From Sphingomicrobium sp. (lineage in GTDB: Bacteria > Pseudomonadota > Alphaproteobacteria > Sphingomonadales > Sphingomonadaceae), in assembly GCA_035250985.1 (NCBI GenBank), contig DATFEO010000061.1, forward strand, positions 1 through 41,907: a DNA stretch of 41,907 bases. The letters are read 5' to 3'. The position numbers and the translations under genes are program-made. This document shows, one piece after another, positions 7,307 to 40,331 of the stretch. The first letter of the stretch is position 1, and each line of letters starts with the position of its first letter. Below the pieces are notes generated by a model that saw only the letters and a program-made list of their open reading frames with translations, made no database searches and was not told the origin of the DNA.

Positions 7307-9085
7307 TCACGTTGCAACGGGCGTAATCGCCTCGGACGTATCGATCCCAAGCCGGGTCACGGCGCCCGCGAGCATCTGCTGAAAGCGGGATTCGTCGCGC
7401 AGGCCGTCCAGGTTAGGGTCATTCGCGGCCAGCCTGAGGGTGCTCGGCCCGCCCCGGGCAAAAACTGGGGCGAGCACATCGAGAGCAGCTTCCTTGTCGC
7501 CGACGATTGCGGCCAAGCCGAAGCCGAGATTGTACCGCATGAACAGGTTGTCCGGGTCGAGCAGGAGCGCGCGCTCACGCCACTGACCGGCCTCGTCGGA
7601 CTTGCCAAGTACCGCAAGACTGTTTGCGCCCATGGCGAGCGCGACCCCATTGTCCGGGCTTTGGGCAAGGACTTGCTCGACATGCTCGATGATCTTGTTC
7701 GCGGCCTTGGCGGCGCCGGTAGAGTCCCCTTGCGCAATGCAGCACGCGAGCAGCATGCCCCAGCCGTGAAAGTCGGCGTCCATGAGTTCCGTCGCCCGCT
7801 GCAAATGGCGCGCAGCCGCATCGATGCGCCTTTGCCGATAGAATATGCGCGCCGCCTCCTTGTTCACTTCCCATGAGTCCGGGTTGAGCCGAAGTGCGGC
7901 TTCGATCTCTGCATACGCCTTTTCATGCTGGCCCTGTTCGGCGAAGCGCCACGCTCTCGGCAAATGAGCTTCCGCAATATCCGGATCGAGGGTCAGTGCC
8001 CGCTCGGCGGCCGCTGATCCATCATCGACGCTTGGATCCGTCCCGAAGCCGTAGCAGACATGCGCCTGCGCAATCGCGATCAGCGCCCACGCCTGTGCAT
8101 AGTCGGGATCGACAGCGGTCGCCCGTTCGCAAATGCGGATGACCATCGCGGCCCGTCGGCGATTGCCGAAATCCGTGATCCAGTATTGCCGCGCCATGAG
8201 ATAGAGGTTGTAAGCCTCCGCACTCGTCGTTCCACGCTGCTCGATCGCCTTTTTCTCTTCGGGAAGCAGCTTGAGCTTGAGCGCAGCAACGATCTCCTTC
8301 GTGATCTCGTCCTGGATCGCGAAAATGTCGATGAGGTCGCGGTCGTAGCGCTCGGCCCAAACATGGTCTCCGCTCGTTCCGTCGATGAGCTGGGCCGTAA
8401 TGCGAACGCGCTCCCCGACCTTTCGGACGCTGCCTTCGAGGACATGGCTCACGCCCAGCTTCCGGGCGATCTCGCTGACATCAACCGACTGGCCCTTGAA
8501 CTGGAACGCCGTATTGCGCGCGATCACCGACAAGGCCGAAATCTTCGACAAGTCGGTGGTGATGTCCTCGCTGATCCCGTCGCTGAAATACTCTTGTTCC
8601 GCATCACCGCTCATGTTGGCGAAGGGCAATACACAAATCGCGCTCCTTCGCACCGGCATCCCGGGTGCAGGCCTGCCGCGCGGTGCCGGCTCGGCGCCGC
8701 GCACCAGGGCCGCAATGCTTCCCTCGATTTTCCGCCAGCCCGGTGAATTATGATCGCCATCCCAGCCGCGCAAATCGGCGCACTGGATCTGATTGAACGG
8801 CATTGGCGGCAACGTGCCATCGACGCTGACCTGCACCAACGTTCCAGCTTCGCGCGCGGCGTCGGCTTCGGCGCGAACCCATTGCGATTTTGCGGCCTCC
8901 GCCGACCACACAGCGAGCACGGCCTTGGCCAGCCGCAGGCGCTCTTCGATGACATCGCCGTAGGCGCGATGCGCGGGAAGCTCATCATCCCGCCAGACCT
9001 CGTATCCCTGTGAACGCAGGGTGTCCGCAATCAGCCGTGCCTGCGGCTCGGTTGAACGCGCGTAGGAGACGAACACATCCGTCAT
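7307..9085 (-). CDS. TIR-domain protein with TolB-like domain and TPR repeats
   Basis: DVFVSYAR...VWRD...WVRAEA (TIR_2); VLPFANMSGD..EYFSDGISEDI, LEGSVRK (TolB-like); TPR-like helical C-terminus. Confidence 0.85.
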   Translation of the reverse strand: MTDVFVSYARSTEPQARLIADTLRSQGYEVWRDDELPAHRAYGDVIEERLRLAKAVLAVWSAEAAKSQWVRAEADAAREAGTLVQVSVDGTLPPMPFNQIQCADLRGWDGDHNSPGWRKIEGSIAALVRGAEPAPRGRPAPGMPVRRSAICVLPFANMSGDAEQEYFSDGISEDITTDLSKISALSVIARNTAFQFKGQSVDVSEIARKLGVSHVLEGSVRKVGERVRITAQLIDGTSGDHVWAERYDRDLIDIFAIQDEITKEIVAALKLKLLPEEKKAIEQRGTTSAEAYNLYLMARQYWITDFGNRRRAAMVIRICERATAVDPDYAQAWALIAIAQAHVCYGFGTDPSVDDGSAAAERALTLDPDIAEAHLPRAWRFAEQGQHEKAYAEIEAALRLNPDSWEVNKEAARIFYRQRRIDAAARHLQRATELMDADFHGWGMLLACCIAQGDSTGAAKAANKIIEHVEQVLAQSPDNGVALAMGANSLAVLGKSDEAGQWRERALLLDPDNLFMRYNLGFGLAAIVGDKEAALDVLAPVFARGGPSTLRLAANDPNLDGLRDESRFQQMLAGAVTRLGIDTSEAITPVAT

Positions 9086-9128: not shown

Positions 9129-9704
9129 ATGATACGGTCTGTCTTCCCGACGCTGCTTTACGAGGCCGAGATCGGCAACGGGCCCCTGATCGAAAGGCTG
9201 GCGCATTCGATCCGCACGCTGGCGCGCGACGACAAGGCCGGCATCCGCTGGAGCAGGGACAAGGGCTATGCGGGCTACACCAGCTACGCCTCGCTCGATG
9301 ACCTGACCCGGCGCGATCCGGCCTTCGCCGAGCTGGCAAAAATGCTGGCGCGGCATGGAGCTAAGTTCATCGAGGAATGCGGCTTCGAGCTGGGCCGCAG
9401 GCCGCGGCTCGACAGCCTGTGGGTCAATCTGTTGAAAGCAAGTGGACACCACAGTGGACATATTCACCCGCACTCGGTCGTTTCCGGTACCCTTTACGTC
9501 GAGGTGCCGGCCGGCGCTGGCGGCATTCGCTTCGAGGACCCACGGCTGCCTTTGATGATGGCGGCGCCGCAACGCGAGTCGGCCTTCGTCACAATCGATC
9601 CCCGACCCGGCCTGCTGTTGCTCTGGGAAAGTTGGCTGAGGCACGAGGTGCTGCCCGGCCACGGCCGCGGCGACCGTCTCAGTGTCAGCTTCAATCTTTC
9701 CTAG
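9129..9704 (+). CDS. TIGR02466-like putative 2OG-Fe(II) oxygenase
   Basis: FPT N-terminus, GYTSYASL, H.GHIHPHS.VSGTLY, WESWLRHEV, RLSVSFN. Confidence 0.85.
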   Translation: MIRSVFPTLLYEAEIGNGPLIERLAHSIRTLARDDKAGIRWSRDKGYAGYTSYASLDDLTRRDPAFAELAKMLARHGAKFIEECGFELGRRPRLDSLWVNLLKASGHHSGHIHPHSVVSGTLYVEVPAGAGGIRFEDPRLPLMMAAPQRESAFVTIDPRPGLLLLWESWLRHEVLPGHGRGDRLSVSFNLS

Positions 9705-12175
9705 CGGATCATCGCCTGCCAGCTGCCGTAGCGCGACCGCACCTGGCCGCGGCGGATGCTGAGCACGATCAGGCCAAGGCCGCAGGCGATGCTGGCGATG
9801 GTCTGGGTTGTGTCGACGCCAAAGGCGAAGGGAGTCGCCAGCAAGGCAAGTCCGAGCGGAACAAGCAGGAAGCGCAAGGGCCGGGCAACCTCCGCCGCCG
9901 CCAGCGAGATCACGGTCAGCGCCAGCGCTCCTACAAGATGGTCGGCATCGGCCATTGATCCTTCAGCGCCAAGGCTCAACCGGGTAAACATCAGCCACAA
10001 GCCGACCAGTGCCGCCAGCGCCAGATTCCACGGCAGGTTGACGCCGCCGGCCCACATGTCGGCCAGGAAGGCGCGCGGACCGCGCGCAAATTCGTCTTCC
10101 TCGGGTTCGGAACCATCGCCATCGATGTCACCGAACAGGAAGACGCGCAGCCAGTTCTTCCCCTCTCGCACGCGCCGGCGCATGAATTGCAGGCTCGCCA
10201 GCAATTCGTCGAGCGAATAGGGTATCTGCACCAGCATGGCCGCGGCGGCGATCAGTGCCAGCGTGCTCCAGGTACCGATTACGATCGGCTGGATGATGAT
10301 GAAGAAGATGGAGACAACGCCCAAAGGGGCGATCATCAGTCCGAACAGGACCACCAGCCAGGGCATGGTCCGCCAGCGCGCCGTCGAGCCAACGATCCCT
10401 GTCAGGATCTCGAGCGCATAGGTGTAGCCGCCGACGGCCGCATCGGAGACAGGCCAGGCCTCGGAGACATGGCTGGTGATGATCTCCTCGGTGCCGTTTT
10501 GCGGATCTGCGGGGGAGCCGGCGAAAAACGGCTCCCACACCCCTTCGACATGACCGAGCTGGTAAGCGGCGAGGTAGCGCGAGACCTCCAGCCCGACGAC
10601 CGCCAGCAGGATGATCGGCAGGCGCTGCGCCCAGCTCGACGGATTGTAGCTCCAGCTCGGCGGCGTGAGGGGGCCTTCGGTTGCGGCTAGCGGCGATGGA
10701 CCGACGTCCGGCTTGGTCGCCACCGCAAGGCCGAAGATGAGCCCGCCGACCAAAGTGTCCGACAGGTAGGCGGCGGGGTTTTCCGTCCAAAACAGGAAAG
10801 GCGCGGCCATGACCAGCGCGCCCGCGACTGCCGTCGCCCAGCGCGCCCAGCGCAGCCGCCACCATAAGGACAAGCTCGCAAGCACTATGGTCGCTGCGCC
10901 GAGCGTGACCTCGCTGGCCGCCAGCAATTCCTCCTCGACGCCGACCAGCGGCGGCTGGGCAGCAAGCCAGATGCCGAGGAAGATATTGACCAGGTGCGCC
11001 CAGCGGAACTGGCGGTGCTCGGCCAGCAGCAGCGCTTCATGCTTGGCCCGCAGGCGTTCGGGGTCATGGCCCGCTTCCGCGGCCTCCTGCATGGCGGGCG
11101 GCGGCGTCAGGCCGTTCTGCTCGTACCAGGCCTTGGGGTCGCGCTTCAGCGCAGCGACCATCTTCGGAAGCGTGTGTTTGATCCGATGCCTCGGCTCCCA
11201 ACCGAGCAGGCGGCGGGCGCGGCTGATGTCGAGCTCATAATGGTCGTCGGCCATGCGGGCCATGAACGGCCGTACGAATGGCGGTTCGCCCTGGTCAATG
11301 GCATCGGGGACGATCGGCTCCAGTTTCTGCTGCGCCCAGGCCCCGGCCACGGCGACCGGCTTGGGGACCCTCAGGGTTGGCCACTCGTCAGCGCCGTGAA
11401 TCAGGTATCCGAGCTCATCCTGCAGGAAATCATAGCCGGGCGCCTCCTCCTCACCGACTAGGATTGTCGTCCCGGTCGGTATGTCTTTCCTGCGATCGAT
11501 TACCCGCTGGAAGGCGCTGAGCATGTCGTCGCGATGGACCATCGACTGGCCGACGCGGGTCGAACCCGAATAAAGGTGGCTCTGCAGGTCGCGCTCGTAG
11601 ATGCGCGCGATCTGGTTGGCGAGCGTCGGGACGGCCGTCTCGTCGTCATAGAGTCCGGCCAGGTGCAGCAGGACGTAGGGGATGCCGCCATGCTCGGCGC
11701 GGATAACCTCCTCGGCCGCCGCCTTCGACTTGGGATAGGCCCATTTGGGCGCGATCGGCTGGTCCTCGTCGATCCGCTGCCCCGGCTTGCCCGGCGCATG
11801 AACCAGCATCGTTCCCGAATAGACGAACTGCTCGACCTTCAGGGCCTGCAGCGCCCTCAGGAGCCGGCGAGTGCCGTCGACATTGATGGATTGGTAGAGG
11901 GGGTTCTCCTCTCCGGTGAAATCGAAATAAGCGGCGAGATGGACGACGCTGGCAAGCCGCTCGCCGAACTGCTCCTGAATTTCTCCAATCGCCCTGGTCA
12001 CCGACTGGTCGTCGCCGAGGTCGGCATGAACGAGCGGGAAATCGGCCCTGGTATCGGGTCGGTCGAGGCCCACGACCCGGTACGAGTCCCGAAGCGTCTC
12101 GGCCAGCGACTTGCCGATATTGCCAGCCGCACCGGTGATCAGCACGATCGGACGGTTTTGGTCGCGCTTGGCCAT
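9701..12175 (-). CDS. NAD-dependent epimerase/SDR + SPW repeats + VKOR-like membrane fusion protein
   Basis: TGAAGNIG Rossmann motif, HLAAY, YPKSK catalytic motif; multi-TM C-half with YNPSSW, WEPFF, RWRTMPW, QPIVIGTW. Confidence 0.8.
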   Translation of the reverse strand: MAKRDQNRPIVLITGAAGNIGKSLAETLRDSYRVVGLDRPDTRADFPLVHADLGDDQSVTRAIGEIQEQFGERLASVVHLAAYFDFTGEENPLYQSINVDGTRRLLRALQALKVEQFVYSGTMLVHAPGKPGQRIDEDQPIAPKWAYPKSKAAAEEVIRAEHGGIPYVLLHLAGLYDDETAVPTLANQIARIYERDLQSHLYSGSTRVGQSMVHRDDMLSAFQRVIDRRKDIPTGTTILVGEEEAPGYDFLQDELGYLIHGADEWPTLRVPKPVAVAGAWAQQKLEPIVPDAIDQGEPPFVRPFMARMADDHYELDISRARRLLGWEPRHRIKHTLPKMVAALKRDPKAWYEQNGLTPPPAMQEAAEAGHDPERLRAKHEALLLAEHRQFRWAHLVNIFLGIWLAAQPPLVGVEEELLAASEVTLGAATIVLASLSLWWRLRWARWATAVAGALVMAAPFLFWTENPAAYLSDTLVGGLIFGLAVATKPDVGPSPLAATEGPLTPPSWSYNPSSWAQRLPIILLAVVGLEVSRYLAAYQLGHVEGVWEPFFAGSPADPQNGTEEIITSHVSEAWPVSDAAVGGYTYALEILTGIVGSTARWRTMPWLVVLFGLMIAPLGVVSIFFIIIQPIVIGTWSTLALIAAAAMLVQIPYSLDELLASLQFMRRRVREGKNWLRVFLFGDIDGDGSEPEEDEFARGPRAFLADMWAGGVNLPWNLALAALVGLWLMFTRLSLGAEGSMADADHLVGALALTVISLAAAEVARPLRFLLVPLGLALLATPFAFGVDTTQTIASIACGLGLIVLSIRRGQVRSRYGSWQAMIR

Positions 12176-12273
12176 TGGCAACCAACGGACTTCGCCGCGC
12201 ACGGTTGCGCTTTCCCTCGGCGCGGCGGGCCGCTAAAGGCGCGCTCACTTCCGGACACGAGGACGTAATTTTC

Positions 12274-13374
12274 ATGGGATTCCGCTGCGGGATCGTCGGC
12301 CTGCCGAACGTTGGCAAATCGACGCTTTTCAATGCCCTGACCGAGACTCAGGCCGCCCAGGCGGCCAATTATCCGTTTTGCACGATTGAGCCGAACGTCG
12401 GGCAGGTTGCCGTGCCGGACGACCGCCTCGACAAGCTTGCGGCCATTGCCGGATCGGCCAAGATCATCCCCACCCAGCTCGCCTTCGTGGACATCGCCGG
12501 CCTCGTGAAGGGCGCTTCCAAGGGCGAAGGCCTGGGCAACCAGTTCCTTGCCAACATCCGCGAGGTCGACGCCATCGTCCATGTCCTGCGCTGCTTCGAG
12601 AACGACGACATCCAGCATGTCGAGAACCGCGTCGATCCCATTGCCGATGCCGAGACGGTCGAGACCGAGTTGCTGCTCGCCGACCTCGAAAGCCTTGAGA
12701 AACGCGTGCCCAACCTCATCAAGCGAGGCCAGACCGGCGACAAGGAATCGAAAATCGCCGCTTCTGTCCTCAGCCAGGCGCTCGACTTGCTCCGCGAGGG
12801 CAAGCCGGCGCGCCTCGTGAAGCCCAGGGACGAGGAAGAAGCGCGCGTCTTCTCCCAGGCGCAACTGCTCACCGCCAAGCCCGTGCTCTACGTCTGCAAC
12901 GTCAATGAGGAGGACGCCGGCGAGGGCAACGCCCATTCGCAGCGCGTCTTCGACAAGGCCCACGCCGAGGGCGCGGAGGCAGTCGTCGTCTCCGCGGCGA
13001 TCGAAGCCGACCTCGTCACCATGGACATGGAGGAACGTCTCGCTTTTCTCGAGGAGATGGGCCTGCACGAAACCGGTCTCGCGCGTGTCATCCGCGCCGG
13101 CTACGACCTCCTGCACCTCATCACCTTCTTCACCGTCGGCCCGAAGGAGGCGCGGGCCTGGACGGTTGAGAAAGGCTCAAGGGCGCCGCGGGCTGCCGGC
13201 GAGATCCACACCGATTTCGAACGCGGCTTCATCCGCGCCGAAACCATCGCTTTCGAAGATTATGTCGCCCTGAACGGCGAGGCCGGCGCCCGCGAGGCCG
13301 GTAAGCTGCGCCAGGAAGGCAAGGACTATGTCGTCAAGGACGGCGACGTCCTCCACTTCAAGTTCAACGTCTAG
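12274..13374 (+). CDS. ychF: Redox-regulated ribosome-binding ATPase YchF
   Basis: GIVGLPNVGKST, ANYPFCTIEPN, DIAGLVKGASKGEGLGNQFL, TGS-like C-terminus ending FKFNV. Confidence 0.98.
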   Translation: MGFRCGIVGLPNVGKSTLFNALTETQAAQAANYPFCTIEPNVGQVAVPDDRLDKLAAIAGSAKIIPTQLAFVDIAGLVKGASKGEGLGNQFLANIREVDAIVHVLRCFENDDIQHVENRVDPIADAETVETELLLADLESLEKRVPNLIKRGQTGDKESKIAASVLSQALDLLREGKPARLVKPRDEEEARVFSQAQLLTAKPVLYVCNVNEEDAGEGNAHSQRVFDKAHAEGAEAVVVSAAIEADLVTMDMEERLAFLEEMGLHETGLARVIRAGYDLLHLITFFTVGPKEARAWTVEKGSRAPRAAGEIHTDFERGFIRAETIAFEDYVALNGEAGAREAGKLRQEGKDYVVKDGDVLHFKFNV

Positions 13375-13565
13375 CTCCGGCTCTCCCTTAAGAGCATCAC
13401 TCCGAGTAGCGCGGTAACGACCAGCGCGACCCAGCTGACGGATTGCGGCACGGCGGTTCCGCCAACCGTGATGTCGAAGCCAACCGCAAGTCGGTAAAGG
13501 TGACCGATCGCCATCAGGAGGAAGATGATGGCGGCGACGAGCGTGAATGGACGAGTCCTGGTCAT
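13371..13565 (-). CDS. Small two-TM hypothetical membrane protein (64 aa)
   Basis: Strong SD GGGGAGG, two hydrophobic helices, stop shared with ychF at CTAG. Confidence 0.7.
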   Translation of the reverse strand: MTRTRPFTLVAAIIFLLMAIGHLYRLAVGFDITVGGTAVPQSVSWVALVVTALLGVMLLRESRS

Positions 13566-13645: not shown

Positions 13646-15268
13646 GTGAGCGGAATCTCGACGCAGGAGTTGGCGCAGCGAACCGCCCGGCAGGATCCGG
13701 CTCTGTTGCGCGCGGGCGTGGCGCTCGTCGAGAACGACCTGCCGACGGCCGAGGGAATCCTTCGCCCCTATCTCATGAAGCGCCCGACGGACGTGAAGGC
13801 GATCCGCATGATGGCCGAGCTTGCGGCGCGCATCGGCCGCTTGGTCGATTCCGAGAATCTGCTCCGCCGCGCGCTGGAGCTGGCCCCGAGCTTCACAGCT
13901 GCGCGCGCCAACCTGGCGACCGTCCTCTACAAGCAAAACCGCGCCGCCGACGCGATTGCGCAGTTGGAGCAGATCGAAAGCGAGGGCGAAGCCAATCTCG
14001 GCCATGCCAGCCTCAAGGCCGCCGCACTCGGCCGCATCGGCGGGCACGAGGAAGCGCTCGCGCTCTACCGTCAGTTGCTGGAAGCGCGGCCCGACGAGCC
14101 GAAGCTGTGGCTGAGCTACGGCCATATCCTCAAGACTGTCGGCGAGCAGGCCGAAGGCATTGCCGCCTATCGCCGCGCCCTGGCGATCGAACCGACGCTG
14201 GGTGAGGCTTGGTGGAGCCTCGCGAATTTGAAGACCGTAAGGTTCGACGAGGCCGATATTGCGGCGATGGAGAGCGCGCTCCGAGAGGGCAGCATCGGCA
14301 AGGAGGACCGCTTCCATCTCCATTTCGCCCTCGGCAAGGCGCTTGAAGACAAAGGCGATGCGGAGGCAAGCTTCCATCATTATGCCGAGGGAAATCGGCT
14401 TCGGCGATCGCTGCTGGACTATTCCGCGCGGGACAATCACCGGCATGTCGAGCGCTCGACCGCCCTGTTTACCTCCGAATTCTTCGCTGCGCGGGATGGA
14501 GGGGGTTGCAGGGCCCCGGATCCGATCTTCATCCTCGGCATGCCGCGGGCCGGCTCGACTCTCGTCGAGCAGATCCTGGCCAGCCACCCGGCGATCGAGG
14601 GCGTCGCCGAGCTCCCCGACATGCCTGCCATTGCGCGCCGCCTCGACGCACACAAGGCGCGAGGCAATGCCAGCCTGTACCCGGAATGCCTGGCGGACCT
14701 CGATGGGGAGGGGCTGAAGGCGCTGGGCGAGGAATATCTAGAGCGCGCCGGCGTCCAGCGTTTCACCGACCGCCCGTTCTTCATCGATAAGCTGCCCAAC
14801 AACTGGATGCATGTAGGATTGATCCGGCTGATCCTTCCCAATGCCAGGATCATCGATGCTCGCCGGCACCCGCTTGCCTGCTGTTTCTCCAACTTTAAGC
14901 AGCATTACGCGCGAGGCCAGAAATTCTCGTACGACCTCGCCGACCTCGGCCATTACTATCGTAGCTATGTGACGCTCATGCGCCACTTCGATGCCGTGCT
15001 TCCCCGCTATGTTCACCGCGTCATCCATGAGGATCTGGTGGACGATCCGGAGAAAGAGGTCCGGCGCCTGCTCGACTTTCTGCAATTGCCGTTCGACTCG
15101 GCCTGCCTCGCTTTCTACGAGAATCCGCGCGCTGTCCGTACGGCCAGTTCAGAGCAAGTGCGGCGCCCGATCAGCCGTGAGGGGCTTGAGCAATGGAAGA
15201 TGTTCGAGCCCTGGCTCGACCCACTCAAAGAAGCGCTCGGCCCAGTGTTGCAGGATTGGCACCGTTAG
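13646..15268 (+). CDS. TPR-containing PAPS-dependent sulfotransferase (paralog 1)
   Basis: N-terminal TPR helices; PIFILGMPRAGSTLVEQIL (5'-PSB), FIDKLPNN, RHPLACCFS (3'-PB), RTASSEQVRRPI. Confidence 0.9.
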   Translation: MSGISTQELAQRTARQDPALLRAGVALVENDLPTAEGILRPYLMKRPTDVKAIRMMAELAARIGRLVDSENLLRRALELAPSFTAARANLATVLYKQNRAADAIAQLEQIESEGEANLGHASLKAAALGRIGGHEEALALYRQLLEARPDEPKLWLSYGHILKTVGEQAEGIAAYRRALAIEPTLGEAWWSLANLKTVRFDEADIAAMESALREGSIGKEDRFHLHFALGKALEDKGDAEASFHHYAEGNRLRRSLLDYSARDNHRHVERSTALFTSEFFAARDGGGCRAPDPIFILGMPRAGSTLVEQILASHPAIEGVAELPDMPAIARRLDAHKARGNASLYPECLADLDGEGLKALGEEYLERAGVQRFTDRPFFIDKLPNNWMHVGLIRLILPNARIIDARRHPLACCFSNFKQHYARGQKFSYDLADLGHYYRSYVTLMRHFDAVLPRYVHRVIHEDLVDDPEKEVRRLLDFLQLPFDSACLAFYENPRAVRTASSEQVRRPISREGLEQWKMFEPWLDPLKEALGPVLQDWHR

Positions 15269-15300
15269 CGGCGAATCCGCTCGTTGCGCCCGCAATACGA

Positions 15301-15330
15301 TTGACGCCTCTGTAACAAAAGTCACACCTT
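15301..15330 (+). promoter_or_regulatory. TonB-receptor promoter region with CRP-family-like palindrome
   Basis: TTGACG at 15301-15306 followed by TGTAA-N6-TCACA at 15311-15326 (9/10 match to TGTGA-N6-TCACA). Confidence 0.6.
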
Positions 15331-15356
15331 CCTGCCGGGTCACAGGGGAAACGGCC

Positions 15357-17855
15357 ATGCGCCTGCATCGGAACAATTTGCCGCAGTGGAAACGCGCCGC
15401 GACGGGGCTGCTCGCGTCGACGATCATCGCAACGCCGGCGCTGGCTCAGGATGTGCCTCCGGCGGATCCCGCTGACACTCCCGCAGCCGCGGAAGCGCGG
15501 CAGGAGAGCGGCGAAGAGATTGTCGTCACCGCGACCAAACGCGCCGAAAACCTGCAGGACGTGCCGATCGCCATCACCGCGATCACGACCAAGACCCTGG
15601 ACGATCTGCAGGTCAATCAGTTTGACGATTACGCGCGCCTCGTTCCGTCCTTGTCGTCCAAGTCCGGCGGCGGCGGCGGCAGCGCCGACGGCCCGGGCAC
15701 GAACAACGTCTATTTCCGCGGCGTCGCAAGCGGCGAGAACGCCAACCATTCCGCCTCCCTGCCGAGCGTCGGCACCTATCTTGACGAGCAGCCGATCACG
15801 ACCATCGGCGGCGCCCTCGACATCCACATCTTCGACATAGCCCGGGTGGAAGCGCTCGCTGGTCCGCAGGGCACGCTCTACGGCGCCTCGAGCCAGGCTG
15901 GCACGATCCGCATCATCACCAACAAGCCCGATTTTTCCGGCACCTATGGCGCCGCCAACCTGGAGGTGAACACCGTCGCCCACGGCGATTGGGGTTACAA
16001 TGGCGAAGCCTTCGTGAATTTTCCGATCAGCACCAACATCGCCGCCCGTGTCGTCGGCTGGTACCGGCACGACGCCGGCTACATCGACAATATCCGCGGC
16101 GTCCTTGAGATGACCGAGTTCGTCTACGACGACGAGGAGGAGGGCCCGGTTCCCACCGGCAATACCCTCACCCTAGACAATGATGAGTTCGCGGAGGACG
16201 ATTACAATGACGTCGACACCTATGGCGCCCGCGCGGCGCTAAGGATCGACCTTAACGAGAATTGGACGATCACGCCCCAAATCGTCGGGCAGGTGATGAA
16301 GGTGAACGGATCCTTCGCCGAAGAGCGCGGCCTCGGCGATTACGAGACCATGCAGTTCAACGATGAAAAGGTGAAAGACAAATGGTTCCAGGCGGCCCTT
16401 ACGGTTGAGGGCAAGCTCGGCAATTTCGACGTCACCTATGCCGGTTCCTTCATGAAACGGCAGCTCGACTCCGAATTCGACTATTCCGATTACGCCTATT
16501 TCTACAACGAATTGGCGAGCTATGGCGTCTACTGGTACGACGATGCCGGCGACCCCATCGTGCCGAACCAGCTGGTCGTTGCCGACGACAGCTACAAGAA
16601 GCAGTCACACGAATTGCGCTTCGCTTCGCCCGCGGAAAATCGCCTCCGCCTGATCGCCGGCCTGTTCTACCAGCGTCAGGAACATAATATTGAGCAGAAC
16701 TATATCATTCCCGGTTTGTCCGAGGACCTGCAGGTCCCCGGCACCGACAATATCTGGCTCACCAAGCAAGTTCGTGTCGACCGCGACTACGCGGCGTTCG
16801 GTGAGCTGAGCTACGACATCACTCCGCAGTTCACGGCGACCGCCGGCGGCCGATGGTACAAGTTCGACAATTCCCTGGAGGGCTTCTTCGGTTTCGGCGA
16901 CGGGTATAGCAGCATGACCGGCGTCGCCGCCTGCTTCGGGCCGCCGCAGGTCTCAGGCTCACCCTGCACCAACCTCGACAAGAGCATTGAGGACAGCGGC
17001 TTCGTCCACCGGCTGAACCTGACCTACAAGCCGAACGAGGACCTGCTTCTTTACGCCACTTGGTCGCGAGGCTTCCGCCCCGGCGGCGTCAACCGGCGCG
17101 GCGACTTCCCGCCGTACGACCCCGATTATCTCACCAATTATGAGGCCGGCGCGAAGTACAGCTTCGGCCGCGGCGCCCACTTCAACATCGCCGGCTACGT
17201 TGAGAACTGGAAGGACATGCAGGTCTCGGTGCTCGGCCAGAACGGCCTGACCGTCGTCCGCAATGTCGGCAAGTCCCGGATCGTGGGCGTCGAGGCCGAC
17301 CTGCTGCTGCGGCCGATAGACGGGCTCACCTGGAGCACCGGCGTCGCCTATAACGATGCAACGCTCCGGGAAGACTTCTGCTTCGACGAATTGGCACCCG
17401 ACTGCAGCGACGCTGGCTTCTTCGGTGGCGACGGTGATGGCGTGGACATCCTGGCCGAAAAGGGCGACCGTTTGCCGCTGACCGCGCGCTGGAAAGGCAG
17501 CAGCCAGGTGCGCTACGAATGGGGCCTCAGTTCAGACCTTGAGGCGCACGTCCAGGGACTCGTCACCTATGAAGGCGAGCGCAAGCGCGATCTCCGGCCC
17601 GGCATCAACGACATCTATGGCAACCTGAAGTCCTATGCCCAGGTCGACATCGGCGCCGGTCTGGAAAAGGGGCCATGGAACGTCGACCTCTACGTCAAGA
17701 ACCTGTTCGACGTTCGCGGCCAATTGTCGAAGAACATCCAGTGCCGCGAAGAGGTTTGCGGCGATTCGATCGACGCTACCGACATCGGCGGCAAGATCTA
17801 TACGGTCGTCACCCGGCCGCGCACGATCGGCCTTCGCGTCGGCCGCAAATTTTAG
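15357..17855 (+). CDS. TonB-dependent outer-membrane receptor
   Basis: SD AGGGGA; signal peptide ending ALAQ; EEIVVTATKR, RVEALAGPQGTLYG plug motif, SRGFRPGG, VKNLFD, C-terminal Phe (RVGRKF). Confidence 0.95.
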   Translation: MRLHRNNLPQWKRAATGLLASTIIATPALAQDVPPADPADTPAAAEARQESGEEIVVTATKRAENLQDVPIAITAITTKTLDDLQVNQFDDYARLVPSLSSKSGGGGGSADGPGTNNVYFRGVASGENANHSASLPSVGTYLDEQPITTIGGALDIHIFDIARVEALAGPQGTLYGASSQAGTIRIITNKPDFSGTYGAANLEVNTVAHGDWGYNGEAFVNFPISTNIAARVVGWYRHDAGYIDNIRGVLEMTEFVYDDEEEGPVPTGNTLTLDNDEFAEDDYNDVDTYGARAALRIDLNENWTITPQIVGQVMKVNGSFAEERGLGDYETMQFNDEKVKDKWFQAALTVEGKLGNFDVTYAGSFMKRQLDSEFDYSDYAYFYNELASYGVYWYDDAGDPIVPNQLVVADDSYKKQSHELRFASPAENRLRLIAGLFYQRQEHNIEQNYIIPGLSEDLQVPGTDNIWLTKQVRVDRDYAAFGELSYDITPQFTATAGGRWYKFDNSLEGFFGFGDGYSSMTGVAACFGPPQVSGSPCTNLDKSIEDSGFVHRLNLTYKPNEDLLLYATWSRGFRPGGVNRRGDFPPYDPDYLTNYEAGAKYSFGRGAHFNIAGYVENWKDMQVSVLGQNGLTVVRNVGKSRIVGVEADLLLRPIDGLTWSTGVAYNDATLREDFCFDELAPDCSDAGFFGGDGDGVDILAEKGDRLPLTARWKGSSQVRYEWGLSSDLEAHVQGLVTYEGERKRDLRPGINDIYGNLKSYAQVDIGAGLEKGPWNVDLYVKNLFDVRGQLSKNIQCREEVCGDSIDATDIGGKIYTVVTRPRTIGLRVGRKF

Positions 17856-17868
17856 AGGACGCCGTTTA

Positions 17869-17907
17869 TCCGGCCATGCTACCGCCCGCCGCGTGAGCAT
17901 GGCCGGA
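17869..17907 (+). promoter_or_regulatory. Stable intercistronic stem-loop after TonB receptor (stabiliser or weak terminator)
   Basis: 12-bp perfect stem TCCGGCCATGCT/AGCATGGCCGGA with no strong U tract, 9 nt before the next GTG. Confidence 0.65.
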
Positions 17908-17916
17908 CAGATTTAA

Positions 17917-19707
17917 GTGACCGCGAAACCGTCGATTATCGCCGACCCGCAGGCGGCGCTGAAACAGGCGCGGCAGCTGCTTGCCTCCGATCCCAAGGCG
18001 GCGATCCGGCAGGCCCGGCAACTGCTCGAAACGAGCCCCGAAGACCCTGCCCTGCTGCGGCTGCTCGGTACGGCCCTGCGCAGGAACGGCGAGGAAGCCG
18101 AGGCGCAGGCGATCGAGAAGCGGGCGATCGACGCCTCCACCCGCAGCCCGGCCCACCGCGAGGCGGCGCGCGCGGTCGCCGCCGGCGACAAGCAGCGCGC
18201 GGCGGCCATCCTCGAAGGCCTCATCGCGCGCGACGAGAACGACGTTGTCGCCCTCGTCATGCTCGGCCTCCAGTTCTCGCTCGAGGCCGAATATGCGATT
18301 GCCGAGGCCTTGCTCCGTAAGGCGGTCGCCGCCGCGCCCGGCGACCCCGCCGCGCGCATGGCACTGGTTGAGCACCTCCACCGGGCCAGGCGCGCCGCGG
18401 ACGCGCTTGAAGAGCTCGACAAGCTCGCGACGGAAACCCCGGCATCCCAGTCGCTTCGCGCCAGCATCTTGCGCGACCTGGGCCGGCAGGAAGAAGAGGT
18501 TGCGGTTCTGAAAGGTCTCGCCGAAGCCGATCCGCGCATGCCGGCATATCGCATTCGCCTCGGCCATGCGTATCGCACGCTCGGCCGGGCCGACGACGCC
18601 ATTGCCGCCTATCGGTCGGTCATTGCCCAGGCTCCTCATGAAGGCACGTCCTGGTGGAGCCTCGCCAATCTCAAGACGATGAAGTTCAGCGACGCCGAGA
18701 TCGCCCAGATGCAAGGCGGCCTGGCCAATCCGCAATCGCCGCTGACCAATCGCATCCGCCTCAGCTTCGCCCTGGGCAAGGCGTTCGAGGACCGCGGCGA
18801 GCACGAGCAGGCCTTCCGCCATTATGAGGAAGGCAATCGCATGCGAATGACGATTGCCACCTACAGGCCGGAGAAGCTCGACCATTGGGTCGACGATGCC
18901 GAGCTTGCCTACAGCAAGGAATTTTTTGCCGATCGGGCTGGATGGGGCTTCCCCGCGCGCGATCCCATCTTCGTCGTCGGCCTGCAGCGGTCGGGTTCGA
19001 CCCTGGTCGAGCAAATCCTTGACAGCCACCCCGAGATCGAGGGCACGGCGGAGCTGACGGAGTTGCCGACCATCATCCGCGAGCAGAGCGAGATCGCCCA
19101 TCGACGGGGCATCGGCTTCGAGGAACATCTGAAGCGAATGAGCAGCGACGATCTGCGTGGGCTCGGCGAAGATTATATGCAGCGCAGCCGGCTTTACAGG
19201 TTCACCGACAAGCGGTTGTTCACTGACAAGATGCCGGTCAACTGGCTCTACGTCGGAATCATCCGGCTGATCCTGCCAAATGCCAGGATCGTCGACGTCC
19301 GGCGCCATCCGCTCGCCTGCTGCTTCGCCAATTGGAAGCAGCTCTACGGCAAGGGCCTCGAGCACACCTATTCGATGGAGAATATGGGCCGCTACTACGC
19401 CAACTATGTGCGGCTCATGCGGCTGGTGGACGACCTCCAGCCGGGCAATATCCACCGTGTCATATACGAGCAAATGGTCGACGACGTCGAAGGCGAAGTC
19501 CGCCGCCTGCTGGACTATCTCGGCCTGCCGTTCGACGAAGCCTGCCTGAACTTCCATTCGAACGAGCGCTCGGTGCGCACAATCAGCGCAGAGCAGGTCC
19601 GTCGCCCGATCAACCGCGAGGGGCTCGATCGGTGGAAGCCGTACGAGCAATGGCTCGGGCCGCTGAAGACGGCGCTGGGCGGCGCGTTGGAGACCTGGGA
19701 CCAGTGA
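17917..19707 (+). CDS. TPR-containing sulfotransferase (paralog 2)
   Basis: TPRs; PIFVVGLQRSGSTLVEQIL, FTDKMPVN, RHPLACCFA, RTISAEQVRRPI. Confidence 0.9.
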   Translation: MTAKPSIIADPQAALKQARQLLASDPKAAIRQARQLLETSPEDPALLRLLGTALRRNGEEAEAQAIEKRAIDASTRSPAHREAARAVAAGDKQRAAAILEGLIARDENDVVALVMLGLQFSLEAEYAIAEALLRKAVAAAPGDPAARMALVEHLHRARRAADALEELDKLATETPASQSLRASILRDLGRQEEEVAVLKGLAEADPRMPAYRIRLGHAYRTLGRADDAIAAYRSVIAQAPHEGTSWWSLANLKTMKFSDAEIAQMQGGLANPQSPLTNRIRLSFALGKAFEDRGEHEQAFRHYEEGNRMRMTIATYRPEKLDHWVDDAELAYSKEFFADRAGWGFPARDPIFVVGLQRSGSTLVEQILDSHPEIEGTAELTELPTIIREQSEIAHRRGIGFEEHLKRMSSDDLRGLGEDYMQRSRLYRFTDKRLFTDKMPVNWLYVGIIRLILPNARIVDVRRHPLACCFANWKQLYGKGLEHTYSMENMGRYYANYVRLMRLVDDLQPGNIHRVIYEQMVDDVEGEVRRLLDYLGLPFDEACLNFHSNERSVRTISAEQVRRPINREGLDRWKPYEQWLGPLKTALGGALETWDQ

Positions 19708-21062
19708 ATCCCGAGATCAGGGCCGCCCTCCAGCACGGCAATGCCGGCACAGCGCTGGCGCTCATACGTGCGCTGCCGGACGCGCAGCGCGGCGAATTCC
19801 TGATCGCGGCGCATGAGGCCAACCTGCTTGGGCGGCTTGGCCGGCATGAGGAGGAGCTCGCCATCCTTCGGCGCCTGATTGCTGAACAGCCGCAGAACCC
19901 CAGCCTCCATCTCAGCGTCGCCAATGCCCTGAAGACGCTCGGCCGCCGCGACCAGGCAATCGCCGCCGCGCGCGATGCGCTCGCCCTTCGGCCAGGCTAC
20001 GGCAAGGCCTGGTGGGTGATCGCCGACTTGAAGAACCACGTTTTCACCGACGAGGATGTCGAAGCGATGGAGGCGGCGCTGGTCACGGCCGAAACACCCG
20101 CCGATCGCCTGCACTTGCACTTCGCGCTCGGCCGCGCCGCCGAGCAACGCGACGAGGCTGAAAAGGCTTTTGCCCATTATGCCGATGGCAATGCCATCGC
20201 CGCTGCCGCGATCCCGCCGCACGCGCCGCGCACCGCCGAGCGCGTCGATCGCGCCATTGCCATCTTCACCCGCCCCTTCTTCGCCGCCCGCGAGGGCCTC
20301 GGCGACCCCGGCGACGCACCGATCTTCATAGTCGGGTTGCACCGTTCTGGATCGACGCTGGTCGAGCAGATCCTCGCCAGCCATCCGGAGATCGAGGCGA
20401 CCAGCGAATTGCCGATCCTCGGCCAGCTCATGCGCTCAGTCGCCGCCGACCCGTCGCTCCCAGGCGAAGCACCGGTTGATAAGCTCGCCGGGCTCGACAA
20501 GGCGCGCGCTGCTGCCCTCGGTGCCGAATACCTCGACCGCGCCGCCGCCTATCGCCTGGAAGGCAAGCCGCGCTTCGTCGACAAGATGCCCGCCAACTGG
20601 CTTTACACCGGGCTCATCCGGCTCATCCTGCCCAATGCGACCATCATCGATGCGAGGCGCCACCCGATGGCAGCCGGCTTCTCCAATTTCCGCCAGCATT
20701 ATGATGCCGGTGCATCCTGGTCACATTCGCTGGAGGCGATCGGCCGTTATTATCGAGATTACCTGCGGCTGATGCGGCATTTCGACATGGTGCTGCCTGG
20801 CAAGATCCACCGCGTGATCAATGAGCGACTGATCGAGGATTTTGAGTCAGAGGTGCGGCGGCTCCTCGACCATGTCGGCGTCCCGTTCGATCCCGCCTGC
20901 CTCGAATTCCATCGTTCGAACCGTCCGGTCCGCTCGGCCAGCGCCGAGCAGGTCCGTCGCCCGGTCAACCGTGAAGGGGTCGACCAGTGGCGAAAGTTCG
21001 AACCCTGGCTGGGCCCGTTGAAGGAAGGGCTCGGAGATGCGCTGGAGGATTGGCAGCAATGA
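19704..21062 (+). CDS. TPR-containing sulfotransferase (paralog 3, shorter TPR region)
   Basis: GTGA overlap with paralog 2 stop; PIFIVGLHRSGSTLVEQIL, FVDKMPAN, RHPMAAGFS, RSASAEQVRRPV. Confidence 0.9.
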   Translation: MNPEIRAALQHGNAGTALALIRALPDAQRGEFLIAAHEANLLGRLGRHEEELAILRRLIAEQPQNPSLHLSVANALKTLGRRDQAIAAARDALALRPGYGKAWWVIADLKNHVFTDEDVEAMEAALVTAETPADRLHLHFALGRAAEQRDEAEKAFAHYADGNAIAAAAIPPHAPRTAERVDRAIAIFTRPFFAAREGLGDPGDAPIFIVGLHRSGSTLVEQILASHPEIEATSELPILGQLMRSVAADPSLPGEAPVDKLAGLDKARAAALGAEYLDRAAAYRLEGKPRFVDKMPANWLYTGLIRLILPNATIIDARRHPMAAGFSNFRQHYDAGASWSHSLEAIGRYYRDYLRLMRHFDMVLPGKIHRVINERLIEDFESEVRRLLDHVGVPFDPACLEFHRSNRPVRSASAEQVRRPVNREGVDQWRKFEPWLGPLKEGLGDALEDWQQ

Positions 21063-21514
21063 TCTACTTCGAGGACATGGAGGTCGGTGCGGAGCGCGTG
21101 TTCGGCTCCTATGACGTGACTCGCGAGGAGGTGCTGGAATTCGCTCATAAATACGATCCACAGCCGTTCCACATTTCCGACGAGGAAGCGGCCAAGACCC
21201 ATTTCGGGCGCATCGCCGCGAGCGGCTGGCATACTTGCGCAATGGTCATGGCGGTGATTGCCCGCGCCGTCGTCGACGATGGCCAGGCCGGCCTCGGCTC
21301 CCCGGGCGTCGACGATCTGCGCTGGTTGAAACCGGTCTATCCCGGCGACCGGATCACCGTTACCGGCAAGGTCGTCGAGAAGACGCCGTCGCGCTCAAAA
21401 CCCGAAATCGGCAGCATCCGGACCGAGACCACCGTCACCAACCAGGACGACGTGCCGGTGATGCGCTTCACCTCGATCGTCCTGATGCGCCGCCGGCCCG
21501 AGCAGGTTTCCTAG
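21059..21514 (+). CDS. MaoC-family hot-dog dehydratase
   Basis: ATGA overlap, SD GGAGG; YFED..VG, YDPQPFH.DEEAA, ASGWHT, LRWLKPVYPGD. Confidence 0.9.
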   Translation: MIYFEDMEVGAERVFGSYDVTREEVLEFAHKYDPQPFHISDEEAAKTHFGRIAASGWHTCAMVMAVIARAVVDDGQAGLGSPGVDDLRWLKPVYPGDRITVTGKVVEKTPSRSKPEIGSIRTETTVTNQDDVPVMRFTSIVLMRRRPEQVS

Positions 21515-36652: not shown

Positions 36653-37345
36653 ATGTCCTGGACTGAAGAACGGATCGAGCGCCTGAAAAAGATGTGGCAC
36701 GATGGCGCCACCGCCAGCCAGATCGCCGACGAACTTGGCGGAGTCAGCCGCAATGCGGTGATTGGCAAGGCGCATCGGCTTGGCCTCGAGGCCCGCCCCT
36801 CCCCGGTGAAGCCGGGCGAGGAGAAGGAAGCCGCGAAGAAGCCGGCAAGGGGCGCCGCTGCCAAGGCTCCGCGCGCCGGCCGCTCCGAAGCTTCGGCCGC
36901 AGGCGCTCATGCCGCCGACGTCGCGCCCGGCGATGCCCCGTCCGGCGCCGGTCCGGATCTGCCGCCGGCAGTGCAGCGAGCGCAATCGCCCGCGACGCCC
37001 GATTCCGGCCTCCAGTATCGGTCAGTCGGCCCAGGCGGCTTCATCCGCCAGGGCCCGGGCGACACGCAGGCGCCGATCCCGCCGGCCCCGCCGCGCCGCC
37101 TGGTGCCTGCCAAGCCGAGCGCCGAGGTCGCCGACAAGACCAGCCTCCTCGACCTCAACGACCGCATCTGCCGCTGGCCGATCGGCCATCCAGGCGAGCC
37201 GGATTTCCACTTCTGCGGTGAGCCGGCCAACCCGGGCTTTCCCTATTGCGTCAACCATTGTGGCGTCGCCTACCAGGCGCAGCTTCCGCGCCGCGACCGC
37301 CGCCCGCCGCCGCCGCTGCCGTTTGGGGGTCCAAGGGTCCGCTAG
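36653..37345 (+). CDS. gcrA: Cell-cycle regulator GcrA
   Basis: MSWTEERIERLKKMW..G.TASQIA.ELGGVSRNAVIGKAHRLGL; CRWPIG.P....FHFCG...YC..H. Confidence 0.95.
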   Translation: MSWTEERIERLKKMWHDGATASQIADELGGVSRNAVIGKAHRLGLEARPSPVKPGEEKEAAKKPARGAAAKAPRAGRSEASAAGAHAADVAPGDAPSGAGPDLPPAVQRAQSPATPDSGLQYRSVGPGGFIRQGPGDTQAPIPPAPPRRLVPAKPSAEVADKTSLLDLNDRICRWPIGHPGEPDFHFCGEPANPGFPYCVNHCGVAYQAQLPRRDRRPPPPLPFGGPRVR

Positions 37346-40023: not shown

Positions 40024-40197
40024 TCGAGAACCGAGTCCGGCGTTTCGGTCAATTTATCCGGCAGCCCAATCATTTTGGCAAACGGCGGCTTCACCTAAAG
40101 ACCCGCCGTCACCTTCGCGGGATGATTCTGAGGTTCGGCAAGCATTGCTTCCGAAATCGGCATCGTACGCCCGTGGAGAATCGAAAAGGGAAAAGTC

Positions 40198-40314
40198 ATG
40201 TACGATTCTTCGGCCAAGAAAATGCGCCAGGTCTGGATGATGATCTTGTTCTCGTTTCTGTCCGGCCTTTCGGCGGCAGCGACTGCCGTCGTGCCGTTGT
40301 TCGTCAACGCATAA
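40198..40314 (+). CDS. Unannotated 38-aa hydrophobic peptide MYDSSAKKMRQVWMMILFSFLSGLSAAATAVVPLFVNA
   Basis: SD AAGGGA before ATG 40198, tandem TAA TAA stop followed directly by the next gene's SD; below the ORF-track size cutoff. Confidence 0.6.
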   Translation: MYDSSAKKMRQVWMMILFSFLSGLSAAATAVVPLFVNA

Positions 40315-40331
40315 TAAAAGGACAAATTTCG

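What the first reader, a model, noticed from the sequence alone, without database searches (positions are those of the whole stretch)
13646..21514. Three TPR-sulfotransferases bracketing a TonB-dependent receptor: candidate undescribed sulfation and transport system
Seen: three co-oriented paralogous TPR plus sulfotransferase genes (540, 596 and 452 aa), none with an obvious signal peptide, surround one TonB receptor. Paralogs 2, 3 and maoC are coupled by 4-nt overlaps. Known: the fold and motifs (GxxRSGSTL, DKxP, RHP) resemble tyrosylprotein sulfotransferases and Xanthomonas RaxST, and TPRs usually bind polypeptides. Inference: this is a dedicated module that either sulfates a peptide or protein, or sulfates a cargo imported or exported through the receptor, with the three enzymes dividing sites or substrates. 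No PAPS-synthesis (cysDNC), sulfatase or precursor-peptide gene is in the window, so the substrate is unknown.
Basis: partly seen in the sequence, partly recalled or inferred. Interest (0 to 1): 0.85.

Follow-up and report, generated by a model that had tools for sequence, protein, structure and literature searches.

The report
Sulfotransferases for tyrosine-rich outer-membrane loops
A soil bacterium places three enzymes built like animal protein-tyrosine sulfotransferases around an outer-membrane transporter with an unusually tyrosine-rich loop; the enzyme–transporter pair recurs across many bacteria and likely adds sulfate to the transporter itself before export, which would extend bacterial tyrosine sulfation well beyond its one well-studied peptide.

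Summary
The genes are real, but the conserved unit is one TPR-sulfotransferase plus the TonB receptor (22 of 22 assessable receptor loci). Three copies occur in 2 of 12 loci at this site. maoC is only a neighbour, and cysD-cysNC lies elsewhere in the genome. The fold is closest to tick and human tyrosylprotein sulfotransferases; five catalytic positions are invariant in 109 homologs. The best substrate candidate is the receptor itself. One predicted surface loop holds 8 Tyr here, 5–11 across its enzyme-paired clade and 0–2 in 46 other relatives, with no rise in Phe/Trp. An unrelated OmpA-like family shows the same pattern beside relatives of paralogs 2/3. Distant family members flank autotransporters, flagellins and porins. 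Best reading (0.55): the enzymes sulfate tyrosines of outer-membrane proteins in the cytoplasm before export; the receptor probably imports betaines or amines. No activity is shown, independent contrasts are only two to three, and some partners are Tyr-poor. This scan noted the pair in 31 other genomes, and the loop twice. Ten paper searches found no function.

The parts
13646..15268 (+). ST1: TPR arm (about residues 6-254) plus TPST-like sulfotransferase domain; ortholog of the single enzyme that precedes the receptor in relatives. Catalytic positions R301, E322, K382, R407, S415, S501.
   Evidence: Pfam; AlphaFold model pLDDT 94; best PDB fold match tick TPST 8w5z; tree; residues
15357..17855 (+). 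TonB-dependent receptor, 832 aa, closest solved relative the pesticin receptor FyuA (4epa); likely substrate of ST1; cargo likely a betaine, amine or amino acid (inferred from neighbours of relatives)
   Evidence: Pfam; PDB sequence search; neighbourhoods
15357..15446 (+). Likely Sec signal peptide of the receptor (30 aa, ends in A-L-A)
   Evidence: Read from the sequence; no predictor run
16455..16601 (+). Tyrosine-rich segment of the receptor (8 Tyr in 49 aa, with a D-Y-x-x-Y motif); predicted extracellular loop from strand alternation; candidate sulfation sites
   Evidence: Second Tyr of the motif invariant in 41 of 41 aligned receptors, first Tyr in 90% or more
17917..19707 (+). ST2: longer TPR arm plus sulfotransferase domain; R358, E379, K438, R463, S557 kept, 3'-PB Ser replaced by Ala471; orthologs at the same place in L031, L033, L037 keep Ser
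19704..21062 (+). ST3: short TPR arm plus sulfotransferase domain with all six catalytic positions; sister to enzymes that flank OmpA-like barrels and YadA-like adhesins in other genomes of the genus
21059..21514 (+). maoC-like dehydratase: a resident gene of this chromosomal site, not part of the system

Best explanation
Three cytoplasmic TPR-sulfotransferases flank a TonB-dependent receptor, and ST1 likely transfers sulfate from PAPS to tyrosines in a tyrosine-rich, predicted surface loop of that receptor before it is exported. Shown: gene layout, TPST-like fold, conserved catalytic residues, cysD-cysNC in the genome, near-obligate pairing, and the Tyr-specific loop. Inferred steps: (1) the TPR arm holds the unfolded receptor precursor in the cytoplasm, as the TPR arm of O-GlcNAc transferase holds its protein substrates; (2) the catalytic domain sulfates loop tyrosines, with the D-Y-x-x-Y motif as prime candidate; (3) the protein then passes through Sec and Bam with sulfotyrosines facing outward; (4) these anionic aromatic residues help capture a cationic or zwitterionic cargo (betaine, amine or amino acid), or mask the loop from phages. 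ST2 and ST3 are older paralogs recruited to the site. They likely widen the set of sites, either on the same loop or on other outer-membrane proteins such as the OmpA-like protein on contig C209; this last step is the weakest.
For: Fold: best PDB match is tick TPST (8w5z, E 3e-8), human TPST1/2 at ranks 6-17, the acyl-carrier sulfotransferases of OLS and CurM at ranks 30 and 39; OGT/SPY match the TPR arm. R, E, K, R and the last S are invariant in 109 of 109 homologs, the 3'-PB Ser in 101 of 109; they align to the TPST1 motifs. PMC6637879 (passages read) names the 5'-PSB Arg, the catalytic Glu/His and the 3'-PB Ser as the essential residues. PAPS supply: APS kinase in G000 and 34 of 38 genomes tested; homologs sit next to cysD-cysNC in L117, L120 and L088 and near them in L118, L119. 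Pairing: 22 of 22 and 16 of 16 assessable loci in two overlapping receptor-first sets; 16 of the 18 closest enzyme-first loci have a receptor adjacent. Loop: 5-11 Tyr in 42 clade-A receptors, 2-5 in 5 enzyme-adjacent clade-B receptors, 0-2 in 46 others; Tyr per residue 0.146, 0.080, 0.026; Phe+Trp per residue not raised (0.050, 0.070, 0.070); Tyr outside the loop 4.3% in clade A against 4.2%. In Novosphingobium pentaromativorans US6-1 the enzyme lies between two receptors and only the downstream one has the cluster (8 against 3 Tyr per 20 residues). Second family: 3 of 30 OmpA-like proteins have an enzyme adjacent and carry 4-5 Tyr in loop 1, against 0-3 in 26 others; the 30th has 4 Tyr and a cut-off flank. 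Of 42 more distant enzyme loci, 10 flank a receptor and 9 another exported surface protein (flagellin, autotransporter, type I giant protein, porin). [quoted passage not shown]
Against: No activity or modified peptide is shown. The receptor contrast rests on 2 independent pairs (sign test p 0.5), and an AU test does not reject a single origin for clades A and B (p 0.18). The loop's outward position is inferred, not modelled. By sequence alone CurM/OLS sulfotransferases score higher (E 1e-10) than TPST1 (1e-7). The basic residues after the catalytic Glu of TPST1 (ETR..PR), which I recall as binding acidic substrate residues, are not kept. Several partners are not Tyr-rich: the YadA-like pair in L118 (0.9% and 0.4%), autotransporters L117, L089, L066 (1.9-3.4%) and flagellins (1.5-2.1%). 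The 8 enzyme-adjacent Oar-type receptors have only 3-6 Tyr per best 20 residues. 17 of 42 distant loci show no obvious partner and 3 lie in glycan clusters. Betaine/amine neighbours would also explain an aromatic loop. For action in trans, OmpA-like loop-1 Tyr averages 2.3 (n=10) in three multi-enzyme genomes plus G000 against 0.65 (n=17) in six single-enzyme ones, but kin are not independent, G328 has three enzymes and 0-1 Tyr, and five of the six single-enzyme genomes hold other paralogs elsewhere.
Confidence: 0.55

Rival explanations
1. The enzyme sulfates the imported cargo, or a product of it, in the cytoplasm, for example a hydroxylated betaine or choline. This traps or stores it, and the tyrosine loop is simply the cargo's aromatic binding site.
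For: BCCT transporters in 10 of the 18 closest enzyme loci. APC amino acid/polyamine permease directly after the receptor in 7 of 10 loci outside this site. GbcA-like Rieske oxygenases, BetI-type regulators and GMC oxidoreductases nearby. G000 keeps a permease and Rieske gene together on C197. CurM/OLS are the best sequence hits. CciT-CciO is a receptor-enzyme pair for which cargo catabolism is proposed (PMC12004947, passages read).
Against: A 100-300 residue TPR arm is not needed for a small molecule. The same family flanks proteins that carry no cargo through TonB: OmpA-like barrels, autotransporters, flagellins. The loop gains Tyr but not Phe/Trp. No BCCT hit in G000 (genome 86% complete).
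Confidence: 0.16
2. The enzymes modify the exported protein, but the acceptor is a sugar or another hydroxyl (Ser/Thr, or a hydroxylated residue) rather than tyrosine.
For: Relatives lie with flagellin plus a GT41 glycosyltransferase (L083, L085), with a GT8 and an autotransporter (Enterobacter sp. 638), in polysaccharide clusters (L074, L080, L081) and next to a TPR-2OG oxygenase (L093). Tyr-poor partners exist. CurM acts on a protein-tethered hydroxyl (recalled).
Against: No glycosyltransferase or hydroxylase is next to the pair in this window or in the closest clade, and those cases fall in distant branches of the tree. It does not explain the Tyr-specific loops in two protein families.
Confidence: 0.13
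3. The link is real but mainly non-catalytic or regulatory: the TPR protein chaperones the receptor precursor or senses PAPS/PAP, and the extra copies are drifting duplicates.
For: ST2 lacks the 3'-PB Ser. Copy number varies from 1 to 3 among close relatives, and two long-read assemblies show frameshifted copies that may be sequencing errors (L034, L053).
Against: Five catalytic positions are invariant in 109 of 109 homologs. Ala or Gly at the Ser position also occurs in sole-partner enzymes (L133, L072, L093, L104), so it need not inactivate. ST2 orthologs keep Ser.
Confidence: 0.08
4. The two genes travel together as a cassette without a direct functional tie; the enzyme's substrate is unrelated to the receptor.
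For: Few independent origins; 17 of 42 distant enzyme loci have no evident partner.
Against: Adjacency survives changes of order (enzyme upstream or downstream), inversion and transfer between Alpha- and Gammaproteobacteria. No clade-A receptor lacked an enzyme within two genes.
Confidence: 0.08

Closest known systems
Metazoan tyrosylprotein sulfotransferases TPST1/TPST2 (PDB 5wri, 5wrj, 3ap1, 3ap3; tick 8w5z)
   Same: Best fold matches. Same Arg / Glu-base / Lys / Arg-x7-Ser motifs, 21 residues from Arg to Glu, and the C-terminal S-x-x-Q-V-x-x-P...W motif.
   Different: Only 22-27% identical. No Golgi anchor; cytoplasmic, with an N-terminal TPR arm. The basic residues after the catalytic Glu are missing. 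Substrate untested.
RaxST with RaxX and RaxAB of Xanthomonas (PMC6637879, PMC9372746)
   Same: Bacterial, cytoplasmic, acts before export and draws PAPS from housekeeping genes.
   Different: RaxST modifies a 60-residue precursor peptide exported by a type I system. Here there is no peptide or ABC exporter, and the partner is an 832-aa outer-membrane barrel. 'Tetratricopeptide' does not occur in the RaxST paper. I did not align RaxST itself.
O-GlcNAc transferase and SPINDLY; bacterial adhesin glycosyltransferases HMW1C, TibC, Aah (the last three recalled)
   Same: TPR arm plus transferase domain (OGT/SPY fold matches). An enzyme encoded beside a surface protein and modifying it in the cytoplasm before export is the same logic.
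   Different: Those add sugars; this fold adds sulfate. No sequence relation in the catalytic domain.
CciT-CciO of Caulobacter, Fiu-YbiX, PiuA-PiuC (PMC12004947)
   Same: A co-conserved TonB receptor and cytoplasmic enzyme with a strict functional link and an unknown mechanism.
   Different: The enzyme is a 2OG/Fe(II) dioxygenase and the system is Fur-regulated iron uptake. The paper has no mention of sulfotransferases.
CurM and olefin synthase sulfotransferase domains (PDB 4gbm, 4gox)
   Same: Best hits by sequence (E 1e-10); same Arg/Glu/Lys layout.
   Different: Those are domains of polyketide synthases. No PKS or carrier protein lies at this locus, and the fold rank is lower than TPST.
'Tetratricopeptide repeat-containing sulfotransferase family protein' (database label)
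   Same: Same architecture; label seen on relatives. The architecture is listed in a 2005 domain survey without function (PMC554113, passage read).
   Different: The label carries no substrate or partner.

Membership tests
PAPS-dependent sulfotransferase (Sulfotransfer_3) | Pfam PF13469 above cut-off and sulfotransferase fold | tested here: met
   155, 154 and 137 bits against a cut-off of 27; model and fold search for ST1
PAPS-dependent sulfotransferase (Sulfotransfer_3) | 5'-PSB Arg, catalytic Glu/His and 3'-PB Ser, in ST1 and ST3 | tested here: met
   R301/E322/S415 and R214/E235/S327
PAPS-dependent sulfotransferase (Sulfotransfer_3) | 3'-PB Ser in ST2 | tested here: not met
   Ala471, unchanged in 4 of 4 runs; 8 of 109 homologs also have Ala or Gly
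PAPS-dependent sulfotransferase (Sulfotransfer_3) | PAPS source in the organism | tested here: met
   cysD and fused cysNC on G000:C8
Tyrosylprotein sulfotransferase (TPST) | Closest structural relative is TPST, with TPST-type motif spacing and C-terminal motif | tested here: met
   CurM/OLS share part of the layout and score higher by sequence
Tyrosylprotein sulfotransferase (TPST) | Basic residues after the catalytic Glu for acidic substrate flanks (role recalled) | tested here: not met
   TPST1 has Arg at two positions where ST1-3 have non-basic residues
Tyrosylprotein sulfotransferase (TPST) | Transfers sulfate to peptidyl tyrosine | not testable with these tools
   Needs an enzyme assay or mass spectrometry
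RaxX-RaxSTAB sulfopeptide (RiPP) system | Short precursor peptide and type I exporter beside the enzyme | tested here: not met
   Gaps of 88 and 61 bp hold no ORF; no ABC exporter in the window's flanking genes scanned; the upstream 64-aa ORF is hydrophobic, has one Tyr and lies on the other strand
RaxX-RaxSTAB sulfopeptide (RiPP) system | Orthology to RaxST | not tested
   No RaxST sequence was fetched
TonB-dependent transporter | Signal peptide, plug, beta-barrel, C-terminal Phe | tested here: met
   signal peptide read by eye
CciT-CciO type pair | Partner is a 2OG/Fe(II) dioxygenase; Fur-controlled iron uptake | tested here: not met
   Partner is a sulfotransferase; no siderophore-receptor model reaches its cut-off; regulation not tested
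Betaine/amine uptake locus | BCCT/APC transporter and betaine catabolism genes beside the receptor | tested here: inconclusive
   Common beside relatives, absent from this window; permease and Rieske gene lie on C197

The most novel reading that the evidence does not exclude
Many Proteobacteria run a general system for tyrosine sulfation of their cell-surface proteins. TPR-armed sulfotransferases pick unfolded outer-membrane precursors in the cytoplasm, and receptors, OmpA-like barrels and some autotransporters have each evolved tyrosine-dense surface segments to receive the sulfate. This locus is one genome's whole kit: ST1 serves the receptor, and ST2/ST3 serve other outer-membrane proteins in trans.
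Probability: 0.3. Interest if true: 0.88.

Novelty: new variant of a known kind. Interest (0 to 1): 0.7.

Why it matters
PMC9372746 states that most bacteria do not encode a tyrosylprotein sulfotransferase and names RaxX as the bacterial substrate. This family has a match in 88 of 251 genomes sampled from the phylum. If it sulfates outer-membrane loops, tyrosine sulfation is a common bacterial surface modification that standard proteomics would miss, because the sulfate is labile. It would bear on how dilute cationic nutrients are captured, on phage and host recognition of surface proteins, and on the wider puzzle of why TonB receptors need cytoplasmic partner enzymes. It would also supply soluble, TPR-programmed sulfotransferases for making sulfoproteins. 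The claim is now directly testable: a named loop, named tyrosines, catalytic mutants, and cultured hosts.

Tried and rejected
Folding the receptor without an alignment failed (pLDDT 29), so the loop's position is not modelled. A complex prediction of ST1 with the loop segment and ADP gave no answer (score 0.00, controls not run); it counts neither way. No RNA holder was listed for the stretch. The promoter/terminator scan found nothing above chance. My first idea of a putrescine (puu/pot) locus was not borne out in the loci fetched; the neighbours are betaine/amine/amino-acid genes. The acidic Tyr insertion in the receptor's earlier loop (V-Y-D-D-E-E-E) looked like a site but is not conserved (gap in 11 of 24 close relatives). 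A general excess of D/E-Y over the whole receptor is weak (fraction of Tyr preceded by D/E 0.14 against 0.13). ST2 as a dead enzyme: not accepted, because sole-partner enzymes carry the same change. A YchF tree does not group the multi-enzyme genomes and is too weakly resolved to tell gain from loss. The TPST2 structure paper was not held; residue roles beyond those in PMC6637879 are recalled. Paper searches: 1 listing, unrelated by title and abstract; 2 listings; one read in passages, unrelated; 0; 0; 0; 0; 1, a table entry. Most subscription journals are not in the library and no supplements were opened, so a published function may have been missed. A search of earlier scan notes by receptor sequence found nothing. 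Rows left out of counts: receptors under 600 aa or not ending in an aromatic residue, 21 non-FyuA-like receptors in the loop tree, and enzyme hits covering under 230 profile positions.
Full report
Observation. The receptor starts at the ATG at 15357 and is 832 aa; residue numbers run one higher. Pfam confirms TPR plus Sulfotransfer_3 in all three enzymes and plug plus barrel in the receptor. The block lies between ychF and apt-petCBA. The closest named receptor records are Sphingomicrobium and Sphingomonas. The stretch is held by soil and rhizosphere metagenomes, and one contig bridges 16720-21600 without gaps.

What is conserved. Searching with the receptor first, 22 of 24 loci have a TPR-sulfotransferase directly upstream; the other two begin inside the receptor. 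In the relatives set, 16 of 18 orthologs do and two are cut by contig ends (one of the 16 is the unpublished G020). The two sets overlap and should not be summed. Searching with the enzyme first, 88 of 251 genomes of the phylum have a match. Of the 18 closest loci, 16 have a receptor adjacent, one has it a gene away and one flanks a 2,825-aa autotransporter-type protein. The triple is local. Of 11 other loci with both flanks at this site, 8 have one enzyme, 2 have two and 1 has three. ST1 is the ortholog of the single enzyme. ST2 and ST3 form a separate clade (FastTree support 0.98) with enzymes that have no receptor beside them. maoC follows the receptor directly in single-enzyme relatives, is missing from the 10 loci outside this site, and keeps its place when the pair is inverted. 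It is not part of the system.

The enzymes. The ST1 model (pLDDT 94) matches tick and human tyrosylprotein sulfotransferases best, ahead of the CurM and olefin-synthase domains, while its TPR arm matches OGT and SPINDLY. By sequence the order is reversed, with CurM/OLS at 1e-10 and TPST1 at 1e-7. Across 109 homologs the 5'-PSB Arg, the catalytic Glu, the Lys, the 3'-PB Arg and the Ser of the C-terminal motif are invariant, and the 3'-PB Ser is kept in 101. PMC6637879 names the Arg, the base and that Ser as essential. ST2 here has Ala at that Ser in 4 of 4 runs laid. Its orthologs keep Ser, and several sole-partner enzymes also have Ala, so ST2 may be weakened but is not shown dead. The genome encodes cysD and fused cysNC on contig C8, so PAPS is available. 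Relatives in L117, L120 and L088 sit directly beside those genes.

The substrate. Two lines point at exported proteins. First, the neighbours. Of 42 more distant enzyme loci, 10 flank a TonB receptor, 9 a flagellin, autotransporter, type I giant protein or porin, 3 an unnamed protein with a signal peptide, 3 lie in glycan clusters and 17 show no clear partner (my tally). The sisters of ST3 flank OmpA-like barrels and YadA-like adhesins. What these partners share is export, not cargo chemistry. Second, tyrosine. One segment of the receptor (16455-16601) has 8 Tyr in 49 residues and a D-Y-x-x-Y motif whose second Tyr is invariant in 41 aligned receptors. Strand alternation places it in an extracellular loop; this is inferred. 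In a tree of 93 FyuA-like receptors the segment has 5-11 Tyr in all 42 of the window's clade (39 enzyme-adjacent, 2 near, 1 a tandem copy next to an adjacent one), 2-5 in 5 enzyme-adjacent receptors of a second clade, and 0-2 in 46 others. For controls the flanks are under 1 kb on one side, so their 'no enzyme' label is less sure. Phe plus Trp does not rise in the loop, and Tyr does not rise outside it in the main clade. That fits a need for the hydroxyl better than a plain aromatic cage. In an unrelated family, the 3 of 30 OmpA-like proteins with an enzyme adjacent have 4-5 Tyr in loop 1 against 0-3 in 26 others. One enzyme-adjacent autotransporter is built of Tyr-rich repeats (L120, 6.5% Tyr).

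Limits. These are few events. The receptor tree gives 2 independent pairs, which cannot reach significance, and one origin is not rejected (p-AU 0.18). The OmpA-like case adds one. YadA-like, flagellin and three autotransporter partners are Tyr-poor, so other acceptors, such as glycans, are likely in other branches; Enterobacter sp. 638 has enzyme, glycosyltransferase and autotransporter in a row. The basic residues that follow the catalytic Glu in TPST1 are absent, so recognition must differ, plausibly through the TPR arm.

The cargo. Relatives keep BCCT transporters (10 of the 18 closest loci), APC permeases (7 of 10 loci outside this site), GbcA-like Rieske oxygenases, BetI-type regulators and GMC oxidoreductases nearby. 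This genome has a permease and Rieske gene together on C197. A betaine, amine or amino acid is the likely cargo. This supports the rival that the enzyme acts on cargo, but it also gives a use for sulfotyrosine: an aromatic, anionic site for a cationic group.

Why three. The genome's own OmpA-like protein (C209) has 4 Tyr in loop 1 and no enzyme beside it in the 9.4 kb downstream; its upstream side is cut. OmpA-like loops average 2.3 Tyr in four genomes with extra enzymes at this site and 0.65 in six with one. The test is not clean: one three-enzyme genome has Tyr-poor loops, and five of the six single-enzyme genomes have paralogs elsewhere. Action in trans is a lead. Division of sites on the receptor loop is the alternative.

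Known and new. It works like a TPST with an OGT-type arm, and like the adhesin-modifying glycosyltransferases (recalled). It is not a RaxX-type peptide system, and TPST membership rests on an activity I could not test. PMC9372746 notes as an unpublished observation that bacterial TPST genes often lie beside genes for extracytoplasmic proteins; PMC554113 lists the architecture without function. Ten searches found no study of this family or pair. The scan has noted the pair in at least 31 genomes. One note gave me the idea that the receptor is the substrate, and others the CciT-CciO comparison. Two notes describe a tyrosine-rich loop; I saw them after my own loop analysis, and they are not independent support.

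Verdict. A real, widespread and uncharacterised enzyme-receptor pair, locally expanded to three enzymes. It most likely sulfates tyrosines of outer-membrane proteins before export (0.55). New variant of a known kind; interest 0.70.

Noticed in passing
L117:102-12806 and L120:7963-19901: A giant autotransporter, a TPR-sulfotransferase, cysD and cysNC lie in one block in two genomes of the genus. The L120 passenger is made of Tyr-rich repeats; the L117 passenger has Asp/Gln at many equivalent places and only 2.8% Tyr.
   Followed up: partly
L208, L209, L210 (OmpA-like PF13505 plus TPR-sulfotransferase): OmpA-like barrels with a Tyr-rich first loop sit tail to tail with enzymes of the ST3 sister clade; a compact two-gene test case.
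   Followed up: yes
G000:C209:9387-10190 (-): The genome's own OmpA-like protein has 4 Tyr in an acidic loop 1 and no adjacent enzyme downstream; candidate substrate in trans.
   Followed up: partly
L083 and L085: Flagellin, three TPR-sulfotransferases and a GT41/FkbM protein in one block, suggesting sulfated flagellin glycans.
   Followed up: no
L118:1295-10039: TPR-sulfotransferase divergent from two Tyr-poor YadA-like adhesins, an EF-hand protein and cysD-cysNC; a counter-example for tyrosine as acceptor.
   Followed up: partly
L095, L097, L100: An unnamed 405-aa protein with a signal peptide and no Pfam match at 1e-8 lies beside one to three TPR-sulfotransferases; possible further surface substrate.
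   Followed up: no
L131, L133, L134, L135: At the same ychF-apt site a different receptor-enzyme pair (about 45% identical receptor) is inserted in the opposite orientation with a PAP2 phosphatase gene, suggesting replacement or inversion at a fixed site.
   Followed up: partly
window 13371-13565 (-): A 64-aa hydrophobic ORF between ychF and ST1, no Pfam match; small minus-strand ORFs occur at this place in L031, L033, L037.
   Followed up: partly
window 9129-9701 (+): A putative 2OG-Fe(II) oxygenase (PF13759) conserved between pth and ychF in the genus; the same domain is fused to TPRs beside an enzyme-receptor pair in L093.
   Followed up: no
window 7307-9085 (-): TIR_2 plus TPR protein, present at this site in only some relatives.
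   Followed up: no
window 9701-12202 (-): Fusion of NAD-dependent epimerase, SPW repeats and VKOR domain, inserted before ychF; a similar-sized ORF is at this place in L038 only.
   Followed up: no
window 37342-40023 (-) and 40122-41237 (+): One ORF joins Cupin_6/AraC and two alpha/beta-hydrolase domains; next to it an AurF-like N-oxygenase match below the Pfam 1e-10 level.
   Followed up: no
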